Shown in pieces: positions 12,534-19,094 of a stretch of DNA of 20,000 nucleotides. Location: the IMG/VR virus record IMGVR_UViG_3300026549_002477. One strand, 5' to 3'. Below the pieces are notes generated by a model. It searched no databases. It saw nothing but the letters and a program-made list of their open reading frames with translations, and had not been told where the DNA came from. Numbering within the stretch: the first letter of the stretch is position 1; the number at the start of each line of letters is the position of its first letter. The DNA is from an uncultured virus (IMG/VR IMGVR_UViG_3300026549_002477). Its lineage: Duplodnaviria; Heunggongvirae; Uroviricota; Caudoviricetes. The position numbers and the translations under genes are program-made.

Positions 12534-12561
12534 TTGCAATTTGAGTGATGAGTGATATAAT
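12534..12561 (+). promoter_or_regulatory. Strong SigA-type promoter for the tRNA array
   Basis: TTGCAA (12534-12539), 16-bp spacer, extended -10 TGaTATAAT. A-tract UP-like element upstream. Confidence 0.75.
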
Positions 12562-12702: not shown

Positions 12703-12776
12703 CGAGAATTAGCTCAGTGGTATAGAGCAGCGGCCTTATAAGCCGTGTGTCCCGAGTTCGAGTCTCGGATTCTCGA
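12703..12776 (+). tRNA. tRNA-Ile(TAT)
   Basis: Acceptor cgagaat/attctcg. Anticodon arm gcggc-ctTATaa-gccgt. T arm ccgag-ttcgagt-ctcgg. Confidence 0.9.
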
Positions 12777-12805
12777 CTTGATGCAGTAGCATCAGCTTTT
12801 AGAAA

Positions 12806-12879
12806 CGGGAGTTGGCGCAATTGGTCAGCGCAAGGTTCTTATAAAGCAGAGGTTGCGGGTTCAAGTCCCGCACTCCCGA
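12806..12879 (+). tRNA. tRNA-Ile(TAT) with a poorly paired anticodon stem (possibly pseudo)
   Basis: Acceptor cgggagt/actcccg, good D and T arms. Anticodon arm aggtt-ctTATaa-agcag has only 3 of 5 pairs. Confidence 0.7.
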
Positions 12880-13056
12880 TTTATTAAGCATAGGAGGAAA
12901 AAGGATGCATCGTTAAATTTAGGGTTCACCAGATAAAATCCTTCCACAAAAATCTGGTCTGTTTGGACATGCGGACTAAAGATGGTCGCGACATCAGAGG
13001 TTTAATTGATAAGATTGATCAACTTATCTAAAACTTGTTCAAGCAGTAAAAAATTT

Positions 13057-13129
13057 GTCTTCGTAGCTCAGATGGTAGAGCACTCGACTTTTAATCGAGG
13101 TGTCGCGAGTTCGATTCTCGTCGGAGACA
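13057..13129 (+). tRNA. tRNA-Lys(TTT)
   Basis: ctcga-ctTTTaa-tcgag, canonical cloverleaf. Confidence 0.93.
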
Positions 13130-13137
13130 TTTAATAT

Positions 13138-13211
13138 GGACTTTTAGCTCAGTTGGTTAGAGCAGACGGCTCATAACCGTCCGGTCTAGGGTTCGAGTCC
13201 CTAAGAGTCCA
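13138..13211 (+). tRNA. tRNA with CAT anticodon, most likely Ile2 (lysidine type)
   Basis: gacgg-ctCATaa-ccgtc. The body (ggacttttagctcagttggttagagcagacgg...) closely resembles Firmicutes tRNA-Ile2 as I recall it, not initiator Met. Confidence 0.85.
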
Positions 13212-13500
13212 CTGAGGCTCTGATTCATGATAAGGAGCCGTAAGACAAAACCTGTCAACTAGCCTAGCGTATTGATACAGTGACTGTGCAATGTTAGCTG
13301 GGTTCCAAAATTATAAGAGTACAGGGTAAGGATTAAATAGTTGTGAACCGTAAGCAGACGTCGGAAAACGAAGCTGAGATATGTTGTCCTGACTAAAACC
13401 AAAATAGGTGAACAAGTCCTTGATTGGGGTACATATGTAAATGCGGATAGGCAAATCACTTACAAGTGCTTTATAGTTGTCAAAGGTCTATAAAGACATT
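13212..13500 (+). ncRNA. Candidate ~290-nt structured ncRNA, family unassigned
   Basis: No credible ORF. Multiple helices: ggctc/gagcc, cctgt/acagg, aaggatt/agtcctt, atatgt/acatat, ctttatag/ctataaag. Confidence 0.5.
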
Positions 13501-13504
13501 ATAT

Positions 13505-13588
13505 GCCGCCATGGCGGAATTGGTATACGCGCAGGACTTAAAATCCTGTTCTGGTAACAGAGTGTGGGTTCGATCCCCACTGGCGGCA
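13505..13588 (+). tRNA. tRNA-Leu(TAA)
   Basis: cagga-ctTAAaa-tcctg, long variable arm. Confidence 0.93.
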
Positions 13589-13610
13589 TTTATGAAAGCA
13601 TAGCTTATAC

Positions 13611-13694
13611 GCCGTTATGCTGGAATTGGTAGACAGGGCAGACTCAAAATCTGCTGATGGAAACATCGTGTGGGTTCAAGTCCCACTAACGGCA
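13611..13694 (+). tRNA. tRNA-Leu(CAA)
   Basis: gcaga-ctCAAaa-tctgc, long variable arm. Confidence 0.93.
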
Positions 13695-13703
13695 CTTTAA
13701 TAT

Positions 13704-13775
13704 AGGGCTATCGCCAAGCGGTAAGGCACAGCACTTTGACTGCTGTATTCGCCAGTTCGAATCTGGCTAGCCCTG
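13704..13775 (+). tRNA. tRNA-Gln(TTG)
   Basis: cagca-ctTTGac-tgctg. Acceptor agggcta/tagccct. Confidence 0.93.
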
Positions 13776-13800
13776 TTTGTAGATGTAAACAATTATATAT

Positions 13801-13914
13801 GGGGCGGTAGCATTGTCCGGGTGAAGAATGAGGTGGTGCCTTTCGTGACCGGAACAGTAGGCGATACATGCAACACCACATGTATATATGCAGGTGCAAA
13901 TCCTGCTCGCTCCA
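13801..13914 (+). ncRNA. tRNA-like RNA A (acceptor stem with G3:U70, T arm, long arm replacing the D arm)
   Basis: ggggcgg/tcgctcc + A. T arm gcagg-tgcaaat-cctgc. Internal ccgg/ccgg arm and atacatg/catgtat hairpin. Confidence 0.7.
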
Positions 13915-13919
13915 CTATT

Positions 13920-13980
13920 GCTGGAATGACGCAACTGATTTGTAATCAGTAGGTTGAGGGTTCGAATCCCTCTTTCAGCT
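13920..13980 (+). pseudogene. D-armless tRNA-Thr(TGT) copy
   Basis: Near copy of 14517-14589 lacking the 12 nt aattggcagcgc. Confidence 0.8.
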
Positions 13981-14039
13981 CTCTGGATAAGGGTGAAAAA
14001 CGGTATAACCATCTTTTGGTTATCCGCCATATCCATAAT

Positions 14040-14109
14040 ACGCTCGTGTCGATGGTCGGCACATGGTCTCCAAAACCATGCTTTTCAGGTTCGATTCCTA
14101 ACGGACGTG
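14040..14109 (+). tRNA. Atypical tRNA-Trp(CCA)-like, copy 1
   Basis: catggt-ctCCAaa-accatg and GGTTCGATTCC. Compressed acceptor/D junction and a T-stem mismatch. Confidence 0.6.
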
Positions 14110-14160
14110 CTTAATTTGGTTTGTTCGTCAACTCACTAAGTGCAAACCAAAAACACATTT

Positions 14161-14258
14161 GCATTCGTAGCTCAATGGCCGATAGCCTGTGGGAAAGCGC
14201 ATCACGTAGAAGCTGAGTAGCAGCTGATGAAATGCAGGTTCGAATCCTGTCGGATGCA
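14161..14258 (+). ncRNA. tRNA-like RNA B (enlarged D loop and anticodon loop)
   Basis: gcattcg/cggatgc + A, TAGCTCAATGG start, T arm gcagg-ttcgaat-cctgt. catca/tgatg closes a 20-nt loop. Confidence 0.7.
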
Positions 14259-14355
14259 TGCGGGTTGCACGCGGGTGTCTGTTTACAGGCGCTCAACGGC
14301 AATACTGTATTATGCAGGGCGCTTTGGCGGATGTACCCCGGCGCCCTGCTCTTTT

Positions 14356-14441
14356 GGAGAGGTATCGAAGCGGTCATAACGAGGCGGTTTTGAAAACCGT
14401 TTGTCCTTCGGGGCACATGGGTTCGAATCCCATCCTCTCCG
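14356..14441 (+). tRNA. tRNA-Ser(TGA)
   Basis: gcggt-ttTGAaa-accgt, long variable arm, G73. Confidence 0.93.
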
Positions 14442-14516
14442 TGTGCGGCACACTCACTCCCCCTTCCCGTAATTATTGTACAGCGTGTGTGCAGAGAAAG
14501 AGCGGACACGCACTTC

Positions 14517-14589
14517 GCTGGAATGGCGCAATTGGCAGCGCAACTGATTTGTAATCAGTAGGTTGTGGGTTCAAGTCCCACTTTCAGCT
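14517..14589 (+). tRNA. tRNA-Thr(TGT)
   Basis: actga-ttTGTaa-tcagt, canonical cloverleaf. Confidence 0.93.
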
Positions 14590-14593
14590 TTAT

Positions 14594-14678
14594 GGACGGG
14601 TATCAAAGTGGTCAAATGAGGCAGACTGTAAATCTGTCGCCCTCCGGGCTTCGCTTGGTTCGAATCCAGCTCCGTCTA
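14594..14678 (+). tRNA. tRNA-Tyr(GTA)
   Basis: gcaga-ctGTAaa-tctgt, long variable arm. One bulged base in the T stem. Confidence 0.85.
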
Positions 14679-14682
14679 TTAT

Positions 14683-14752
14683 GCGTTCGTGTTGATGGTC
14701 AGCACATGGCCTCCAAAATCATGTTTCTCAGGTTTGATTCCTAACGGACGTG
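14683..14752 (+). tRNA. Atypical tRNA-Trp(CCA)-like, copy 2 (more degenerate)
   Basis: Paralogue of 14040-14109 with ctCCAaa loop. T loop is tttgatt. Confidence 0.5.
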
Positions 14753-14760
14753 TTGTATTT

Positions 14761-14832
14761 GGCTCGTTGGTCAAGCGGCTAAGACGTCACCCCTTCACGG
14801 TGGAATCACCGGTTCGACTCCGGTACGAGCTA
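14761..14832 (+). tRNA. tRNA-Glu(TTC) with C at position 33
   Basis: tcacc-ccTTCac-ggtgg. Acceptor ggctcgt/acgagct. Confidence 0.85.
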
Positions 14833-14835
14833 TTC

Positions 14836-14904
14836 GCGGGTATGGTGTAAGTCAGCACAGTCTGGTGTGCAACCGACAAGTAAGGTGTAAGTCCTTTGCC
14901 CGCA
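14836..14904 (+). pseudogene. Degenerate tRNA, anticodon undetermined (loop tgtgcaa)
   Basis: Acceptor gcgggta/tgcccgc, short D arm gtg/cac, bulged anticodon stem, T loop tgtaagt. Confidence 0.55.
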
Positions 14905-15016
14905 GGGAGATTCCGAAGCCAGCTCCGTGTACTAGGTGGCACCTAGTCATCGTCTGGCAGATTATGGGGTACAGCAAAGCCGGCTGTGTCGCGTGGTGCA
15001 AATCCACGGTCTCCCG
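14905..15016 (+). ncRNA. tRNA-like RNA C (same architecture as A)
   Basis: gggagat/gtctccc + G. Long arm gccag..actaggt/acctagt..ctggc. Hairpin tacagc-aaagccg-gctgtg. T arm cgtgg-tgcaaat-ccacg. Confidence 0.7.
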
Positions 15017-15021
15017 CTTCT

Positions 15022-15095
15022 GGAATATTAGCTCAGTTGGTGAGAGCGGCGGCCTTATAAGCCGCGTGTCGGTGGTTCAAGTCCACCATATTCCA
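15022..15095 (+). tRNA. tRNA-Ile(TAT)
   Basis: gcggc-ctTATaa-gccgc. Acceptor ggaatat/atattcc. Confidence 0.92.
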
Positions 15096-15136
15096 TTTGC
15101 GATAGCAGTAATTTGCTTTTCGCAGAGATGCTTCGA

Positions 15137-15208
15137 TGGGGTTTCGCCAAGCGGTAAGGCATGGGATTTTGGTTCCCACATTCGTCGGTTCGAATCCGAC
15201 AACCCCTG
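15137..15208 (+). tRNA. tRNA-Gln(TTG)
   Basis: tggga-ttTTGgt-tccca, Gln-type D arm gccaagcggtaaggc, 1:72 mismatch. Confidence 0.9.
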
Positions 15209-15221
15209 CTCTCTCTTGTTA

Positions 15222-15414
15222 GATTCGGTAGTTAATAATGGTAGACACTGTACACAGACCGGATTGTTTGGAGGAATACCTAGGAGAAAACACCATAATA
15301 AAGACACTCCTACCAACAAACATTTATATTCGGATTTCTTGCCGAGCATCTCCTCGTGAGACTTTGCAAGAAGGCGCTGTGTTAGAAATGCGGGTTCGAA
15401 TCCCGCCCGAATCA
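15222..15414 (+). ncRNA. tRNA-like RNA D (~119-nt structured insertion in place of the anticodon loop)
   Basis: gattcgg/ccgaatc + A. D arm gtt-aataatggta-gac. T arm gcggg-ttcgaat-cccgc. acacag/ctgtgt closes the insert. Confidence 0.75.
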
Positions 15415-15591: not shown

Positions 15592-15631
15592 TGAAAACCG
15601 GATGGATGTCCTCATCTGTTCGGTTCTTTTT
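15592..15631 (+). terminator. Possible terminator at the end of the tRNA array
   Basis: Imperfect stem aaccg-gatg / catc..cggtt followed by a T-run. Confidence 0.4.
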
Positions 15632-15765: not shown

Positions 15766-17823
15766 ATGGCTGAAGAAGCAAAGAAGACAACGCTCAATTA
15801 TGTAGATGAGATATGGAATATCGCTGATTATGTCCGTGATGTAATCAGCCGTGCAGACTATAACAAGCTGGTACTGCCGTTTTCCCTTCTCCGCAGACTT
15901 GAATGCGCTCTGGAAAGCACCAGGGAAGATGTCGTTAAGGCTGTAAAGGAACACGAAGCAGAATGGGGACGGGAATCCGACAACTACTGCCAGTATTCCA
16001 AGAAGGCGTTTTACAATGTCACTTCTTTCCGGCTGAACAATCTCGGAGCTTCCGATACATACGACGCTCTGGATCAATACATCAATGGCTTTTCTCCGAA
16101 CGCCCGTGAGATCATGCTGAAGTTTGAGATGGAGAATACCTGCAAACGGTTACAGGACAAGGGAATGCTCTATTCCGTCTGCCAGAAGTTTGCATCCCTG
16201 CCGTTTGATCCTGAGACTGTATCTGACCGGGATATGTCCGACATTTACGAGCATCTTATCCAGCGATACGGCGATGAGATCGCGGAAGACGCCGAGGATT
16301 TCATGACACCCAAGGACATTGTCCGGCTGGCAACAGGTATGATCTTCGCAAACGACGACGAGCTGATGTCTTCCGACACAGGCATTGTCCGCACGCTCTA
16401 TGACCAGACAATCGGCACAGGCGGATTTGTCTGTGATGCGCTGGATCTTCTTGATAAATGGCACGAAGACAAGAAGATGAAGGCTCCGGCCATCATCGTT
16501 CCTTACGGTGAAGAGCTGTCCGGTGTTACCTGGGCTATGGCGAAGGCAAACCTTCTTATCCGTAATGTTTCTGACGAGTCCAGGGATGCTTACGACAGTA
16601 CGAAGGACCTGTCCGCACATATTCTTGAAGGCGATACGCTTTCGGATGACAAGTTCCCTGACACTCATTTCGATTACTGTATAAGTAATCCACCATATGG
16701 GAAAAAGTGGGAAAAAGAGAAATCCGATGTCGAAACGGAAGCCGCTCACGGCTTTTCCGGCAGATTCGGTGCGGGTACTCCTTCCATTTCCGATGGTTCG
16801 ATGCTTTTTATACAGAATATGGTCGCACACATGAAGACCGCAGAGGAAGGCGGCAGCAAGGCAGGTATTGTCCTTTCGGCTTCCCCTCTCTTCAACGGCG
16901 ATGCGGGAACCGGGCCGTCCAATATCAGACGTTGGCTCTTTGACCGTGACCTTGTTGACTGCATCGTAAAGATCGGACAGGGCGAGTTCTTCCGTACAGG
17001 CATCAACACCTATCTCTGGATTCTTAACACAAAGAAGCCGGAAGGCCGGAAGGGAATGATCCAGCTCATTGATGCCTCTGACCGGGGCGAGACCTTGCGG
17101 AAATCTCAGGGAAATAAACGAATCGCTCTCACAGAAGATGATATGAACTGGATCATCAAGACCTATATCGACGGACACGATGGCGGAAAGTCGGAACTTC
17201 TGCCCGTAACCGACTTCATGTTCCGCGCTGTTACTGTACAGAGACCGCTCAAGATGGTCGTCACATTTGATCTTTCCAAGTGGGACAGTCTTTTCGAGAA
17301 CAAATCTATGCAGAAGCTCTCCGGGGACAATCAGTACAGGCTCAAGCAGGCTGTTGCCGCGCATGAGGGTGAAACGGTTTCTTACGATTGGTGGGTTTCC
17401 CACGCAGATGATTTCCGGCACAAGATGGATAACCCGGAAGTCGCGAAGAAAGCGTTTACGGACGCCTTTATTAAAGCGTTCGGTGTAAAGACCGAGAATG
17501 ATGAAGACATTGTAAGAGATAAGAACGGGAACCCGGTCCCTGATCCTGACCTCAAGGACACGGAGAAAGTCCCGTATCTCGAAGATATCGACGATTATAT
17601 GGAACGGGAAGTGCTTCCGTATGTTCCCGATGCCTGGGTAGATGAGACCGTAGTAGATAACGGGCCTCTTGCAGACGGCAAGGTTGGCGTTGTCGGGACG
17701 CAGATCTCATTTGATAAATACTTTTATCACTACGAGGCTCCGCGTGATCCGGAGGATATCATGTCTGAAATCAAAGCTCTGGAACCGGAAATTGAAGAGG
17801 CTCTGAAGGGAGTATTTGCATGA
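15766..17823 (+). CDS. hsdM: Type I restriction-modification N6-adenine methyltransferase subunit M
   Basis: IWNIADYVR..LPFSLLRRLEC, FMTPKDIVRL, motif I variant YDQTIGTGGF, ISNPPYG, FFRTGINTYLWIL, C-terminal YMEREVLPYVPDAWVD. Confidence 0.95.
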   Translation: MAEEAKKTTLNYVDEIWNIADYVRDVISRADYNKLVLPFSLLRRLECALESTREDVVKAVKEHEAEWGRESDNYCQYSKKAFYNVTSFRLNNLGASDTYDALDQYINGFSPNAREIMLKFEMENTCKRLQDKGMLYSVCQKFASLPFDPETVSDRDMSDIYEHLIQRYGDEIAEDAEDFMTPKDIVRLATGMIFANDDELMSSDTGIVRTLYDQTIGTGGFVCDALDLLDKWHEDKKMKAPAIIVPYGEELSGVTWAMAKANLLIRNVSDESRDAYDSTKDLSAHILEGDTLSDDKFPDTHFDYCISNPPYGKKWEKEKSDVETEAAHGFSGRFGAGTPSISDGSMLFIQNMVAHMKTAEEGGSKAGIVLSASPLFNGDAGTGPSNIRRWLFDRDLVDCIVKIGQGEFFRTGINTYLWILNTKKPEGRKGMIQLIDASDRGETLRKSQGNKRIALTEDDMNWIIKTYIDGHDGGKSELLPVTDFMFRAVTVQRPLKMVVTFDLSKWDSLFENKSMQKLSGDNQYRLKQAVAAHEGETVSYDWWVSHADDFRHKMDNPEVAKKAFTDAFIKAFGVKTENDEDIVRDKNGNPVPDPDLKDTEKVPYLEDIDDYMEREVLPYVPDAWVDETVVDNGPLADGKVGVVGTQISFDKYFYHYEAPRDPEDIMSEIKALEPEIEEALKGVFA

Positions 17824-19094
17824 GTAGAGAAATGAAGGAAGTAAAGCTCCCTTGGGTGAAAGAAATACCTGTTGATTATGATGTTAGATTAGTCAAGAAT
17901 CTCTTTTCTATTGGACGAGGCCGAGTAATCGCAAAAACTGACATTGATTCTGATAATAACGGGAAAATGTATCCAGTCTATTCATCTCAAACTGCAAATG
18001 ATGGATGTATGGGGTACATTCCGTCCTATGATTATGAACAAGATAGCCTAACGTGGACGACAGACGGTGCTAATGCTGGAACAGTATTTTTAAGGTCGGG
18101 AAAATTTAATTGTACCAATGTATGTGGCATTTTAACACTAAGAAATAATGATAAGTATTATCTTCCGTTCTTTGGATATAGCGTTAATCTAAGCTCATTG
18201 AATTCACGCCGCAGTGATATTTTGGGCCATAAGGTTATGAGCAACGAAATGGCAAGATTTTCTGTTGTTTTTCCAATTAATATTGAGGAACAGCGTCAGA
18301 TCGTCCACTTCCTCGACCGCAAATGCACTGCTATCGACACCGCTATCGAGAAGACGAAGGAATCCATCGAGAAGTTGGAAGAATACAAAAAGGCAGTTAT
18401 TACAAAGGCTGTGACAAAGGGGCTTGATCCGGATGCGAAGATGAAGGATTCGGGGGTTGAGTGGATTGGTGAAGTACCAGAGACGTGGGGCATTGGTAAA
18501 TTAAAATATTTTTACGATATAACTCTCGGAAAAATGGTAAATAAGGACAACTCAGGCGATGAAGGTGATTCTTATTTGTGTGCTGCAAATATTAAGTGGG
18601 ATGGAGTTAATACAGATGTGCACAGAAGGATGATATTTACTAATAAAGAAAAAGAACAATATTTGTTAAATGATGGCGATGTTTTAATTATGGAGGGCGG
18701 AGCTGCAGGGACATCATGCATTTATAATAACGAATTTGCCCCATGTTACATTCAAAACTCTGTAAATAGGTGTCGTGGCAAGAAGGGACATGTTAATAAA
18801 TTCCTTTATTATTGGATGCATACAGCTTTCTATGCTGGGTACATAAATGTGGCCTGCAATCAAGCAACTATAATGCACTATACAAAAGAAAAGGTAGCCG
18901 AAACACCTTTTGTGCGCATTTCAGAACATGAACAGTTAGAAATCGTAAACTATCTCGACAAAAAATGTACTGAAATTAACAATCTTATCACAAAAAAACA
19001 GGAAGCCATCAACAAGTGGGAAGAATACAAGAAATCCCTTATCTATTATGCTGTAACGGGCAAAATTGATTGCAGAAATGAGGTCATTGAATGA
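17820..19094 (+). CDS. hsdS: Type I restriction-modification specificity subunit S
   Basis: Two TRDs separated by EEQRQIVHFLDRK...KAVTKGLDPDAKMKDSGVEWIGEVPETW. C-terminal YKKSLIYYAVTGKID. ATGA overlap with hsdM. Confidence 0.95.
   Translation: MSREMKEVKLPWVKEIPVDYDVRLVKNLFSIGRGRVIAKTDIDSDNNGKMYPVYSSQTANDGCMGYIPSYDYEQDSLTWTTDGANAGTVFLRSGKFNCTNVCGILTLRNNDKYYLPFFGYSVNLSSLNSRRSDILGHKVMSNEMARFSVVFPINIEEQRQIVHFLDRKCTAIDTAIEKTKESIEKLEEYKKAVITKAVTKGLDPDAKMKDSGVEWIGEVPETWGIGKLKYFYDITLGKMVNKDNSGDEGDSYLCAANIKWDGVNTDVHRRMIFTNKEKEQYLLNDGDVLIMEGGAAGTSCIYNNEFAPCYIQNSVNRCRGKKGHVNKFLYYWMHTAFYAGYINVACNQATIMHYTKEKVAETPFVRISEHEQLEIVNYLDKKCTEINNLITKKQEAINKWEEYKKSLIYYAVTGKIDCRNEVIE

What the first reader, a model, noticed from the sequence alone, without database searches (positions are those of the whole stretch)
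13801..13914. tRNA-like RNA A carries alanine identity (G3:U70, A73) like a tmRNA tRNA-like domain but has no message
Seen: acceptor GGGGCGG/UCGCUCC-A gives G1:C72, G2:C71, G3:U70 and A73. A long arm (ccgg 13817-13820 / ccgg 13849-13852) replaces the D arm, followed by atacatg/catgtat with an 8-nt loop and T loop UGCAAAU. Established: G3:U70 is the anticodon-independent AlaRS determinant also used by tmRNA. Inference: it may be alanylated without being able to decode, acting as a mini tmRNA-like or SmpB/EF-Tu decoy or as a non-ribosomal Ala donor.
Basis: partly seen in the sequence, partly recalled or inferred. Interest (0 to 1): 0.75.

Follow-up and report, generated by a model that had tools for sequence, protein, structure and literature searches.

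The report
Alanine-type tRNA mimic in phage
A phage-like genome carries, inside its tRNA gene cluster, a 114-base tRNA-shaped gene that keeps the marks for accepting alanine but cannot read codons; it has a sister copy without those marks, resembles poorly understood phage RNAs that are already known, and its job is untested.

Summary
Window 13801-13914 (+) folds as an expanded cloverleaf: a 7-bp acceptor stem (G1:C72, G2:C71, G3:U70, G4:C69, A73), a 53-nt arm in place of the D arm, a 7-bp hairpin with an 8-nt loop in place of the anticodon arm, and a T arm with loop UGCAAAU. It lies in a co-oriented tRNA array. ARAGORN and Rfam call it neither tRNA nor tmRNA. It has no usable tag frame.

Two new points emerged. 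First, it has a paralogue, C, at 14905-15016. C has the same architecture and the same T loop, and 11 of 28 homologous pairs differ by compensatory changes. But C has G3:C70 and G73, so alanine identity is not a family trait. Second, in IMG/VR the combination of this T loop and an Ala-type 3' strand occurs in phage tmRNAs and message-less minis and in no called tRNA. Element A nevertheless lacks the tmRNA D-loop analogue, the GAC motif and the three-way junction.

Best reading: a non-decoding tRNA mimic that is probably alanine-chargeable. Its architecture is like T4 RNAC and its identity marks are like the DS6A TLD-only tmRNA. This is a new variant of a known kind, and its function is untested. 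No orthologues were found beyond near-identical strains.

The parts
13801..13807 (+). Acceptor 5' strand GGGGCGG (element positions 1-7); G3 is at 13803
   Evidence: Sequence; paired in the MFE with probability 0.56-1.0
13808..13809 (+). U8 A9 linker, as in tRNA
13810..13862 (+). Long arm in the D-arm position (positions 10-62). It includes CCGG/CCGG (13817-13820 / 13849-13852) and the apical hairpin AGGU-GGU-GCCU (13831-13841).
   Evidence: MFE and pair probabilities 0.51-0.99. Alone it is not more stable than shuffles (z -0.67). The apical hairpin and mid stem are shared with paralogue C. Strain variant 13818 C>T keeps the pair as U-G, and an inserted G behind 13844 falls at the edge of a predicted internal loop.
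13864..13885 (+). Hairpin 2 in the anticodon-arm position: 7-bp stem AUACAUG/CAUGUAU with the 8-nt loop CAACACCA. It has no U33 and no anticodon.
   Evidence: Stability z -8.9, 0 of 500 shuffles. Two compensatory and two one-sided pair changes against paralogue C.
13886..13889 (+). AUAU linker (variable-loop position)
13890..13906 (+). T arm GCAGG-UGCAAAU-CCUGC, with G in place of U at position 55
   Evidence: The same loop occurs in paralogue C and in 75 IMG/VR loci that are mostly tmRNAs.
13907..13914 (+). Acceptor 3' strand UCGCUCC (U70 at 13911) and discriminator A73 (13914). CCA is not encoded; the next bases are CUAUU.
14905..15016 (+). Paralogue C, 112 nt. Acceptor GGGAGAU/GUCUCCC (G3:C70), discriminator G; long arm with apical AGGU-GGC-ACCU; 8-bp hairpin with a 7-nt loop; T arm CGUGG-UGCAAAU-CCACG (14992-15008).
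   Evidence: Sequence. The cloverleaf-constrained fold is -45.0 against -46.0 kcal/mol unconstrained. Interior similarity to A is z 2.73, reached by 16 of 2000 shuffles. Of 28 homologous pairs, 13 are the same, 4 changed on one side, 11 are compensatory and 0 are broken.
12534..12561 (+). Promoter-like site (TTGCAA, 16 nt, TG-TATAAT) upstream of the array
   Evidence: consensus match only
15596..15625 (+). Terminator-like hairpin with a T run downstream of the array
   Evidence: consensus match only

Best explanation
Element A is a real tRNA-derived small-RNA gene that cannot decode. It is one of two paralogous 'expanded cloverleaf' RNAs (A at 13801-13914, C at 14905-15016) in the tRNA operon of an uncultured phage-like genome found in runs labelled bovine gut.

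Shown:
- A has a complete 7-bp acceptor helix, a T arm and tRNA-type junction spacing.
- A 53-nt arm replaces the D arm, and a 7-bp hairpin with an 8-nt loop replaces the anticodon arm.
- The T loop is UGCAAAU.
- A has no tag frame.
- The architecture is kept in the paralogue through compensatory changes.

Inferred from established tRNA biochemistry:
- A is transcribed with the array, released by RNase P and 3' trimming, and given CCA by the host enzyme.
- Because it has A73, G2:C71, G3:U70 and G4:C69, host AlaRS charges it. AlaRS needs no anticodon.
- It then engages tRNA-binding factors without entering decoding, so it acts as a mimic or titrator.

In architecture it works like T4 RNAC. In identity marks it works like the DS6A message-less tmRNA. 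It is not a recognisable member of the tmRNA family. Because paralogue C lacks alanine identity, charging may be a property of A alone and not what the family is selected for.
For: - Sequence and fold.
- Array context, bracketed by a promoter-like and a terminator-like site.
- G3:U70 is unique to A among the 17 tRNA(-like) genes tabulated.
- All four bacterial Ala acceptor determinants are present (table in PMC9976931).
- No anticodon loop and no tag frame.
- Paralogue C: interior similarity z 2.73 (16 of 2000 shuffles reach it), hairpin-2 region z 3.45 (6 of 2000), with controls at z -0.31 to 0.29. Of 28 homologous pairs, 11 changed on both sides, 4 on one side and 0 are broken; sliding the partner leaves 9-12 of 26-28 pairs.
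- T4 rnaC folds into the same four parts: closing stem, long arm, second hairpin and T arm. [quoted passage not shown]
- Contigs of 3 of the 4 runs laid cover A, one of them from an RNA library. The two differences listed inside A are structure-neutral.
- 9 of 13 neighbouring proteins match PHROGs families.
Against: - No orthologue was found beyond near-identical strains, so there is no covariation test across species.
- The long arm is no more stable than shuffled sequence.
- The '0 broken pairs' figure is partly by construction, because each structure came from its own fold. Acceptor and T-stem covariation occurs between any two tRNAs.
- Paralogue C lacks G3:U70, so alanine identity is not conserved in the family.
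- There is no D loop with GG, and position 55 is G. RNase P and CCA-enzyme recognition of the elbow may therefore be impaired (inference).
- RNA-library contigs do not prove transcription or show ends. That call left 125 differences unlisted.
- Charging, processing and any binding partner are untested.
Confidence: 0.55

Rival explanations
1. Element A is a message-less (TLD-only) tmRNA. It is charged with alanine, binds SmpB and EF-Tu, and competes with or replaces host tmRNA on stalled ribosomes.
For: - Ala acceptor set and no tag frame.
- A's T loop plus Ala-type 3' strand (GGTGCAAATCC-N5-GCTCCA) hits 75 IMG/VR loci. ARAGORN of them tmRNA and none tRNA. Of the 29 uncalled, 14 have a tmRNA-like layout and 10 are minis of 69-122 nt, one of them cut by the contig end.
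- DS6A precedent, with reported inhibition of tmRNA.
- A covariance model built from 9 minis plus DS6A scores A at 34.6 bits, against 20.6 bits or less for the window's true tRNAs.
Against: - That model's training set was fished with A's own T loop and 3' strand, so the score is partly circular. Its helix-2 pairs are not formed in A.
- 59 of 74 candidate 5' strands in those loci are followed by UAG..UCGA. A has UAGCAUUGUCCGG, mostly paired, and AUAU where most have GAC before the T stem.
- A is a four-way junction, not a three-way one.
- No Rfam tmRNA model hits A at E<=10, while DS6A gets 34.7 bits at E 1e-12.
- Paralogue C has the same T loop without alanine identity, so the loop is not proof of tmRNA ancestry.
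Confidence: 0.12
2. Elements A and C are decaying pseudogenes: remnants of a tRNA-Ala or tmRNA gene and of another tRNA, swollen by insertions, with no function of their own.
For: - The array holds other damaged-looking genes: a D-armless Thr-like copy, a tRNA-like gene with two loop inserts, and an 8-nt-loop tRNA-like gene.
- The long arm is not more stable than chance.
- No relatives were found outside one lineage.
- Gene finders reject A.
Against: - A and C align at 55 of 116 columns, yet all 28 compared pairs are still standard pairs, with 11 compensatory changes. The junction spacing is intact.
- Hairpin 2 is a perfect 7-bp stem (z -8.9).
- The T loop (7 of 7) and the apical hairpin (9 of 11) are kept between the paralogues.
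Confidence: 0.2
3. Element A is an alanine donor or decoy outside translation. It might supply Ala-tRNA-dependent transferases, or soak up a host toxin or defence nuclease that acts on tRNA acceptor ends.
For: Ala identity without decoding capacity, and the setting in a phage tRNA array. There is no direct evidence.
Against: No transferase, toxin or defence gene linked to it was seen among the 13 proteins scanned. Paralogue C lacks the alanine marks.
Confidence: 0.06
4. Element A is a working decoder, either after removal of intervening sequence or by unconventional (for example quadruplet) reading with the 8-nt loop.
For: It has an 8-nt loop on a stem in the anticodon position.
Against: - The loop CAACACCA has no U33-like base and the stem is 7 bp.
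- No sub-sequence gives a D arm plus a 5-bp/7-nt anticodon arm (inspection).
- ARAGORN finds nothing here even with introns allowed and relaxed thresholds.
Confidence: 0.03

Closest known systems
Phage T4 RNAC (species 1 RNA, 139 nt; AF158101 70908-71046) and RNAD (119 nt), small stable RNAs encoded in the T4 tRNA gene region
   Same: It is encoded inside a phage tRNA cluster and has similar size. RNAC folds into a closing acceptor-like stem, a ~70-nt long arm, a second hairpin and a T arm, the same four parts in the same order as A and C. Its function is unknown (PMC3014915 passage).
   Different: There is no detectable sequence similarity (A vs rnaC z 0.94, interior z -0.27). The RNAC closing stem is imperfect and has no G3:U70, and its T loop is the canonical UUCGAAU.
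'TLD only' (CDS-less) tmRNA of mycobacteriophage DS6A (JN698994 28478-28557), and the 9 uncultivated-phage minis found here (L054, L060, L063, L064, L066, L071, L080, L097, L101; 69-122 nt)
   Same: GGGGC...GCUCCA alanine-type acceptor with G3:U70 and A73, no anticodon and no tag frame. The IMG/VR minis share A's T loop UGCAAAU.
   Different: These RNAs are three-way junctions with a single-stranded D-loop analogue (UAG..UCGAC) and usually GAC before the T stem. A has a 2-nt linker, a four-way junction and AUAU. DS6A is matched by Rfam tmRNA (34.7 bits) and A is not. Most are not in tRNA arrays: of the 9, only L066 has another ARAGORN gene call within 400 nt.
Bacterial/phage tRNA-Ala
   Same: Acceptor determinants A73, G2:C71, G3:U70 and G4:C69; U8 A9; a 5-bp T stem with a 7-nt loop; tRNA junction spacing.
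   Different: No D arm with G18 G19, no anticodon arm, and T loop UGCAAAU instead of UUCRANY. It is 114 nt long. Rfam RF00005 (E<=10) and ARAGORN do not detect it.
Two-piece (permuted) and standard tmRNAs of uncultivated phages (IMG/VR)
   Same: The same T loop and Ala-type 3' strand. Of 75 loci, 46 are called tmRNA by ARAGORN: 42 with the acceptor end at the start of the call and 4 with standard layout.
   Different: Those carry tag frames ending in ...ALAA or similar, and pseudoknot-sized bodies of 330-470 nt. A has 114 nt and no tag.
YrlA (bacterial Y RNA-like tRNA mimic, Rfam RF02553)
   Same: A non-decoding tRNA mimic with a T arm.
   Different: In the Rfam YrlA consensus (alignment) the 5' and 3' ends pair as the outermost stem and the tRNA-like arms lie inside. 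A's ends form the acceptor stem. No RF02553 hit on A at E<=10.

Membership tests
tmRNA, including TLD-only / CDS-less forms | Alanine-type acceptor stem (G1:C72, G2:C71, G3:U70) with A73 | tested here: met
tmRNA, including TLD-only / CDS-less forms | T arm of the type used by phage tmRNAs | tested here: met
   GGUGCAAAUCC-N5-GCUCCA is shared with 75 IMG/VR loci, of which 46 are ARAGORN tmRNAs and 0 are tRNAs. Paralogue C has the same loop without Ala identity.
tmRNA, including TLD-only / CDS-less forms | Single-stranded D-loop analogue after the acceptor strand (UAG..UCGAC) | tested here: not met
   59 of 74 candidate 5' strands in the IMG/VR set have TAG..TCGA. A has UAGCAUUGUCCGG, mostly paired in the long arm.
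tmRNA, including TLD-only / CDS-less forms | Helix 2 leading straight into (G)GAC and the T arm: a three-way junction with no anticodon-arm equivalent | tested here: not met
   A has an extra 7-bp hairpin and AUAU before the T stem.
tmRNA, including TLD-only / CDS-less forms | Match to curated tmRNA covariance models | tested here: not met
   No tmRNA-family hit on A at E<=10. The positive control DS6A scores 34.7 bits at E 1e-12 against RF00023, below its gathering score of 47.
tmRNA, including TLD-only / CDS-less forms | Match to a model of phage TLD-only minis (own model R1) | tested here: inconclusive
   34.6 bits, the best hit in the window. The training set was selected with A's own T loop and 3' strand, and helix-2 pairs are not formed in A.
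tmRNA (full) | Tag reading frame with resume codon and stop | tested here: not met
   Only ALSG* directly after the acceptor strand. ARAGORN calls no tmRNA.
tmRNA, including TLD-only / CDS-less forms | Binding of SmpB; alanylation | not testable with these tools
   Needs bench assays.
tRNA (RF00005) / tRNA-Ala | Cloverleaf junction: 7-bp acceptor, 2-nt, 1-nt and 4-5-nt spacers, 5-bp T stem stacked on the acceptor | tested here: met
   MFE and pair probabilities
tRNA (RF00005) / tRNA-Ala | D arm (3-4 bp stem, 7-11 nt loop with G18 G19) | tested here: not met
   Replaced by a 53-nt arm.
tRNA (RF00005) / tRNA-Ala | Anticodon arm: 5-bp stem, 7-nt loop with U33 and an anticodon | tested here: not met
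   7-bp stem with the 8-nt loop CAACACCA.
tRNA (RF00005) / tRNA-Ala | Detection by ARAGORN or the Rfam tRNA model | tested here: not met
T4 RNAC-type stable RNA of phage tRNA clusters | Encoded within a phage tRNA cluster; 110-140 nt; closing stem + long arm + second hairpin + T arm | tested here: met
   Folds of T4 rnaC and of A and C; array context.
T4 RNAC-type stable RNA of phage tRNA clusters | Sequence homology to T4 rnaC / rnaD | tested here: not met
   z 0.94 and 0.52; interior -0.27.
T4 RNAC-type stable RNA of phage tRNA clusters | Accumulates as a stable, processed RNA | not testable with these tools
   Only contigs of an RNA library cover it.
YrlA (RF02553) | 5' and 3' ends pair as the outermost stem with the tRNA-like arms inside; match to RF02553 | tested here: not met
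   No hit at E<=10. A's ends form the acceptor stem.

The most novel reading that the evidence does not exclude
Elements A and C define a lineage-specific phage family of tRNA mimics with a remodelled elbow: the D arm is replaced by a long arm, and the T loop is changed to UGCAAAU, as in phage tmRNAs. In this reading host AlaRS charges A in vivo, and A uses that charge to interfere with a host system that reads alanyl-tRNA-like ends. The most concrete candidate is trans-translation (tmRNA, SmpB, EF-Tu), as reported for the DS6A mini. C would serve as an uncharged partner or as a mimic of a different specificity.
Probability: 0.15. Interest if true: 0.75.

Novelty: new variant of a known kind. 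Interest (0 to 1): 0.5.

Why it matters
Small stable RNAs with tRNA-like ends have been known in phage tRNA clusters since T4 RNAC and RNAD, and their role is still unknown (PMC3014915). A message-less tmRNA-like RNA is known from one cultured phage, DS6A. This element combines both kinds: RNAC-like architecture with a full alanine acceptor signature and the T loop of phage tmRNAs.

It also comes with a natural control. Its paralogue has the same body but G3:C70, so the pair allows a clean test of whether charging matters: A against C, and G3:U70 against G3:C70.

If such RNAs are charged and act on AlaRS, EF-Tu or SmpB, they would be a phage tool for manipulating host translation quality control. 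If they are not charged, they still mark a class of tRNA-shaped RNAs that standard gene finders miss in phage arrays.

Tried and rejected
**Searches for homologues of A**
- IMG/VR exact and gapped patterns found nothing.
- A wider Ala-type long-tRNA pattern gave only L051 and L052, which are unrelated in their bodies.
- A pattern from the motifs shared by A and C gave one locus with no acceptor stem, taken as chance.
- JGI metagenomes gave nothing by protein or by pattern.
- GenBank phages gave nothing for A beyond two 24-26-nt T-arm matches.
- In GTDB genomes the gapped pattern gave two orthologous loci in Deinococcales MAG tRNA arrays (L049, L050). Their likeness to A is limited to what the pattern demanded, and their ~50-nt insert motif is absent from A.

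**Searches for relatives of the phage by neighbouring proteins**
- DUF975 and ClpB-like proteins found nothing in IMG/VR.
- dUTPase gave 48 loci. None of the 22 scanned has a tRNA, and 4 whole records lack the AAA protein.

**Other checks**
- No whole genome is held for the window.
- A loop-loop pairing between GUGGUG (positions 33-38) and CACCAC (74-79) is not significant: 1787 and 3042 of 20000 shuffles reach 6 pairs.
- The interior of A has no repeat elsewhere in the window.
- ARAGORN with relaxed thresholds and introns gave only spurious calls, including permuted 'tmRNAs' with implausible tags.
- MAFFT alignments of A with C (A2, A3) misplace the acceptor by one base, so I did not use them for pair counts or for a model.
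- RNA-run contigs show presence only, not transcription, ends or level. Run X15 did not cover A.
- Earlier-findings look-ups by place and by sequence found nothing for this genome.
- Paper searches with these terms listed nothing on a tRNA mimic of this kind in a phage tRNA array: 'phage-encoded tRNAs / non-canonical / anticodon loop / tRNA-like' listed 15 of 79 papers, and 'tRNA-like / phage / AlaRS / minihelix / decoy' found 0. The review PMC7609411 has 0 occurrences of 'phage' or 'tmRNA'.
- I did not consult supplementary files. The tables of PMC10690425 (10,006 candidate viral RNAs) might list relatives.

Full report
**Setting**

The window carries a + strand array of tRNA genes from 12703 to 15209. 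ARAGORN tRNAs and Rfam gives 15 tRNA hits. A promoter-like site lies upstream at 12534-12561 and a terminator-like hairpin downstream at 15596-15625.

Upstream genes encode IF3, a DUF2201/AAA pair, a ClpB-like ATPase, a DUF975 protein and dUTPase. Downstream lie HsdM and HsdS. Nine of 13 proteins match PHROGs families. No whole genome is held for the window.

The stretch occurs in 20 of 24 listed public runs. Twelve of them hold at least half of its words, and most are labelled bovine gut metagenome. I read this as a large uncultured phage or phage-like element, although no structural gene lies in the window.

**The observation**

The minimum-energy fold of 13801-13914 is an expanded cloverleaf:
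- acceptor stem, positions 1-7 with 107-113;
- linker U8 A9;
- G63;
- a 7-bp hairpin with an 8-nt loop, positions 64-85;
- linker AUAU;
- a T arm, positions 90-106, with loop UGCAAAU;
- A73.

The fold has -40.6 kcal/mol and z -1.90, and 8 of 200 shuffles fold as well. Pair probabilities are 0.51-1.0. The spacers at the junction (2, 1, 4 and 0 nt) are those of a tRNA.

Taken separately, hairpin 2 is far more stable than chance (z -8.9, 0 of 500 shuffles). The long arm is not (z -0.67).

Among 17 tRNA or tRNA-like genes tabulated, only A has G3:U70. A has A73, G2:C71, G3:U70 and G4:C69. These are the acceptor determinants listed for bacterial AlaRS, and no anticodon determinant is listed (table seen in PMC9976931). 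That AlaRS charges acceptor/T-arm minihelices is my recollection of the classic work. The review passages I saw mention minihelices in this context only briefly.

Neither ARAGORN nor Rfam calls A a tRNA or a tmRNA, even at E<=10 or with relaxed ARAGORN settings. The only GCN-started frame that ends before the T arm is ALSG*, which begins 2 nt after the acceptor strand. There is therefore no credible tag.

**A paralogue**

Reading the rest of the array showed a second T arm with the same loop UGCAAAU at 14992-15008. It belongs to a 112-nt element, here called C, at 14905-15016.

With the acceptor and T arm imposed, C folds into the same four parts as A at -45.0 kcal/mol, against -46.0 unconstrained.

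The interiors of A and C are more alike than dinucleotide shuffles:

| Region compared | z | Shuffles reaching the score |
|---|---|---|
| Interior | 2.73 | 16 of 2000 |
| Hairpin-2 region | 3.45 | 6 of 2000 |
| Whole element | 4.74 | 0 of 2000 |
| A against B and two spacers (controls) | -0.31 to 0.29 | not significant |

The apical hairpin of the long arm is nearly identical: AGGU-GGU-GCCU in A and AGGU-GGC-ACCU in C.

I compared 28 homologous pairs. Thirteen are the same, 4 changed on one side with pairing kept, 11 changed on both sides, and none is broken. With the partner slid by 1-3 positions, only 9-12 of 26-28 pairs remain. Four of the compensatory changes lie in the body: 2 in hairpin 2 and 2 in the long arm.

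Two caveats apply. The structures came from each RNA's own fold. Acceptor and T-stem covariation is seen between any two tRNAs.

Even so, A and C align at only 55 of 116 columns, and all helices are kept at that divergence. This is hard to reconcile with two decaying pseudogenes.

**Relation to tmRNA**

Earlier notes of this scan pointed me to the 'TLD only' tmRNA of mycobacteriophage DS6A. I checked this lead in four ways.

[quoted passage not shown] Nawrocki et al. list it among CDS-less tmRNAs (PMC11915505, passage). I did not see Mao et al. 2009.

2. *Pattern search.* A search for A's T loop with an Ala-type 3' strand (GGTGCAAATCC-N5-GCTCCA) found 75 IMG/VR loci.
   - ARAGORN at default settings of them tmRNA and none tRNA. 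In 42 the acceptor end lies at the start of the call, which is the permuted layout; 4 have the standard layout.
   - Of the 29 uncalled loci, 10 have the matching GGGGCNN strand 89-330 nt downstream and 4 have it 347-421 nt upstream.
   - Nine close into minis of 69-122 nt, one more is cut by its contig end, and 5 are unresolved, one of them with a poor T stem.
   - So in phages this T loop, when joined to an alanine 3' strand, belongs to tmRNAs and message-less minis. The pattern required the alanine strand, so it says nothing about the loop in other contexts. Paralogue C shows that the loop also occurs without alanine identity.

3. *Defining TLD features.* The minis and tmRNAs have a single-stranded D-loop analogue, with TAG..TCGA after 59 of 74 candidate 5' strands. 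They usually have GAC before the T stem and form a three-way junction. A has a 2-nt linker, a paired UAGCAUUGUCCGG, AUAU before the T stem and an extra hairpin.

4. *Models.* Rfam tmRNA scores DS6A at 34.7 bits (E 1e-12, below the gathering score), but reports nothing for A at E<=10. My own model of 9 minis plus DS6A scores A at 34.6 bits. The window's tRNAs score 20.6 or less, and a true tRNA-Ala in L050 scores 17.0. That score comes from the acceptor and T arm with which the training set was selected, and the helix-2 pairs are not formed in A.

I conclude that A shares its 'top half' with phage tmRNA-like RNAs but is not a recognisable member of that family.

**Relation to T4 RNAC**

T4 rnaC (139 nt) and rnaD (119 nt) are annotated next to tRNA-Arg in the T4 tRNA region. 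Their roles are unknown (PMC3014915, passage).

The rnaC fold (-50.2 kcal/mol, z -4.57) has a closing stem, a ~70-nt arm, a 10-bp second hairpin and a T arm. This is the same order of parts as in A and C. There is no sequence similarity, so the likeness is architectural only.

**Population data**

Contigs of 3 of the 4 runs laid cover A: X6 from an RNA library, X12 and X2. X15 does not cover it.

The differences listed inside A are 13818 C>T, which turns C18-G51 into U-G, and a G inserted behind 13844, at the edge of a predicted internal loop. No difference is listed at 13803 or 13911. However, 125 differences were not shown, divergence is only about 1-2%, and RNA contigs do not prove transcription.

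**How it most likely works**

The shown facts are the anatomy, the context and the paralogy. The following steps are inferred from established tRNA biochemistry:
- co-transcription with the array;
- release by RNase P and 3' trimming;
- CCA addition;
- alanylation of A, but probably not of C, by host AlaRS;
- no decoding.

I commit to a non-decoding tRNA mimic that is alanine-chargeable in the case of A and that titrates or occupies tRNA-binding factors (confidence 0.55). The rivals are:
- a true SmpB-dependent mini-tmRNA (0.12);
- pseudogenes (0.20);
- a non-ribosomal alanine donor or defence decoy (0.06);
- a working decoder (0.03).

**Novelty**

Message-less alanine-type phage RNAs (DS6A) and tRNA-cluster stable RNAs (T4 RNAC and RNAD) are known. 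This four-way, D-arm-expanded form with a tmRNA-type T loop and a non-alanine paralogue is a new variant.

I found no relatives outside one lineage in IMG/VR, JGI metagenomes, GTDB representatives or GenBank phages.

Noticed in passing
window 13920-13980: A 61-nt tRNA-Thr(UGU)-like gene without a D arm (Rfam tRNA 47.9 bits). It looks like tRNA-Thr 14517-14589 after a 12-nt deletion between two GCGCAA repeats. Run X12 shows 13924 G>A, which turns G5:U68 into A5:U68.
   Followed up: partly
window 14161-14258: A 98-nt tRNA-like gene ('B', Rfam tRNA 41.8 bits) with a 16-nt insert in the D loop and a 19-nt insert that turns the anticodon loop into an extended hairpin. Its T loop is canonical. Its T arm resembles that of A (16 of 18 bases).
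   Followed up: partly
window 14836-14904: A 69-nt tRNA-like gene directly abutting paralogue C. It has an 8-nt 'anticodon' loop (ARAGORN, relaxed: GUGC) and a T loop UGUAAGU, again with G at position 55.
   Followed up: partly
window 15327-15414: A rod-type tRNA-like element after the last tRNA: a 6-bp acceptor-like stem, one long arm and a canonical T arm (GCGGG-UUCGAAU-CCCGC). MFE -28.7, z -1.94. No Rfam family matches.
   Followed up: partly
window 13213-13503: A 291-nt gap between tRNA-Met and tRNA-Leu with no Rfam hit at E<=10. In RNA run X6 a 223-nt exact contig (13228-13450) has word depth 988.7, against 8-24 for neighbouring contigs of the same genome. This may be an abundant stable RNA.
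   Followed up: partly
L049 4014-5515 and L050 (Deinococcales MAG contigs): tRNA arrays with encoded CCA in which at least 5 consecutive tRNA-like genes carry a ~50-nt insert in the anticodon region with a shared motif (AUCCUC...CUCGAGCCG.AGC..GAGGGUUAU). The insert is not in Rfam. One of these genes has A's acceptor stem and T loop. CTCGAG is strikingly frequent across L049 4000-5700, including coding parts.
   Followed up: partly
L052 1501-1618 (IMG/VR contig of 84 kb): A stand-alone 118-nt alanine-type tRNA-like gene with a canonical D arm, G3:U70, encoded CCA and a T run. A ~60-nt GC-rich arm stands where the anticodon arm should be. ARAGORN does not call it.
   Followed up: partly
L054-L128 (IMG/VR): Uncultivated phages carry many two-piece tmRNAs with T loop UGCAAAU and tags such as ANDSRFALAA. 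Nine message-less minis of 69-122 nt (L054, L060, L063, L064, L066, L071, L080, L097, L101) share the motifs UAG..UCGAC and ACUAAA with the DS6A TLD-only RNA.
   Followed up: partly
window 12703-15096 and 15766-19094: There are three tRNA-Ile(UAU) genes and two tRNA-Gln(UUG) genes in one array. The HsdM/HsdS pair downstream has 47-51% G+C against 30-35% for the genes upstream of the array, and no HsdR lies in the window.
   Followed up: no
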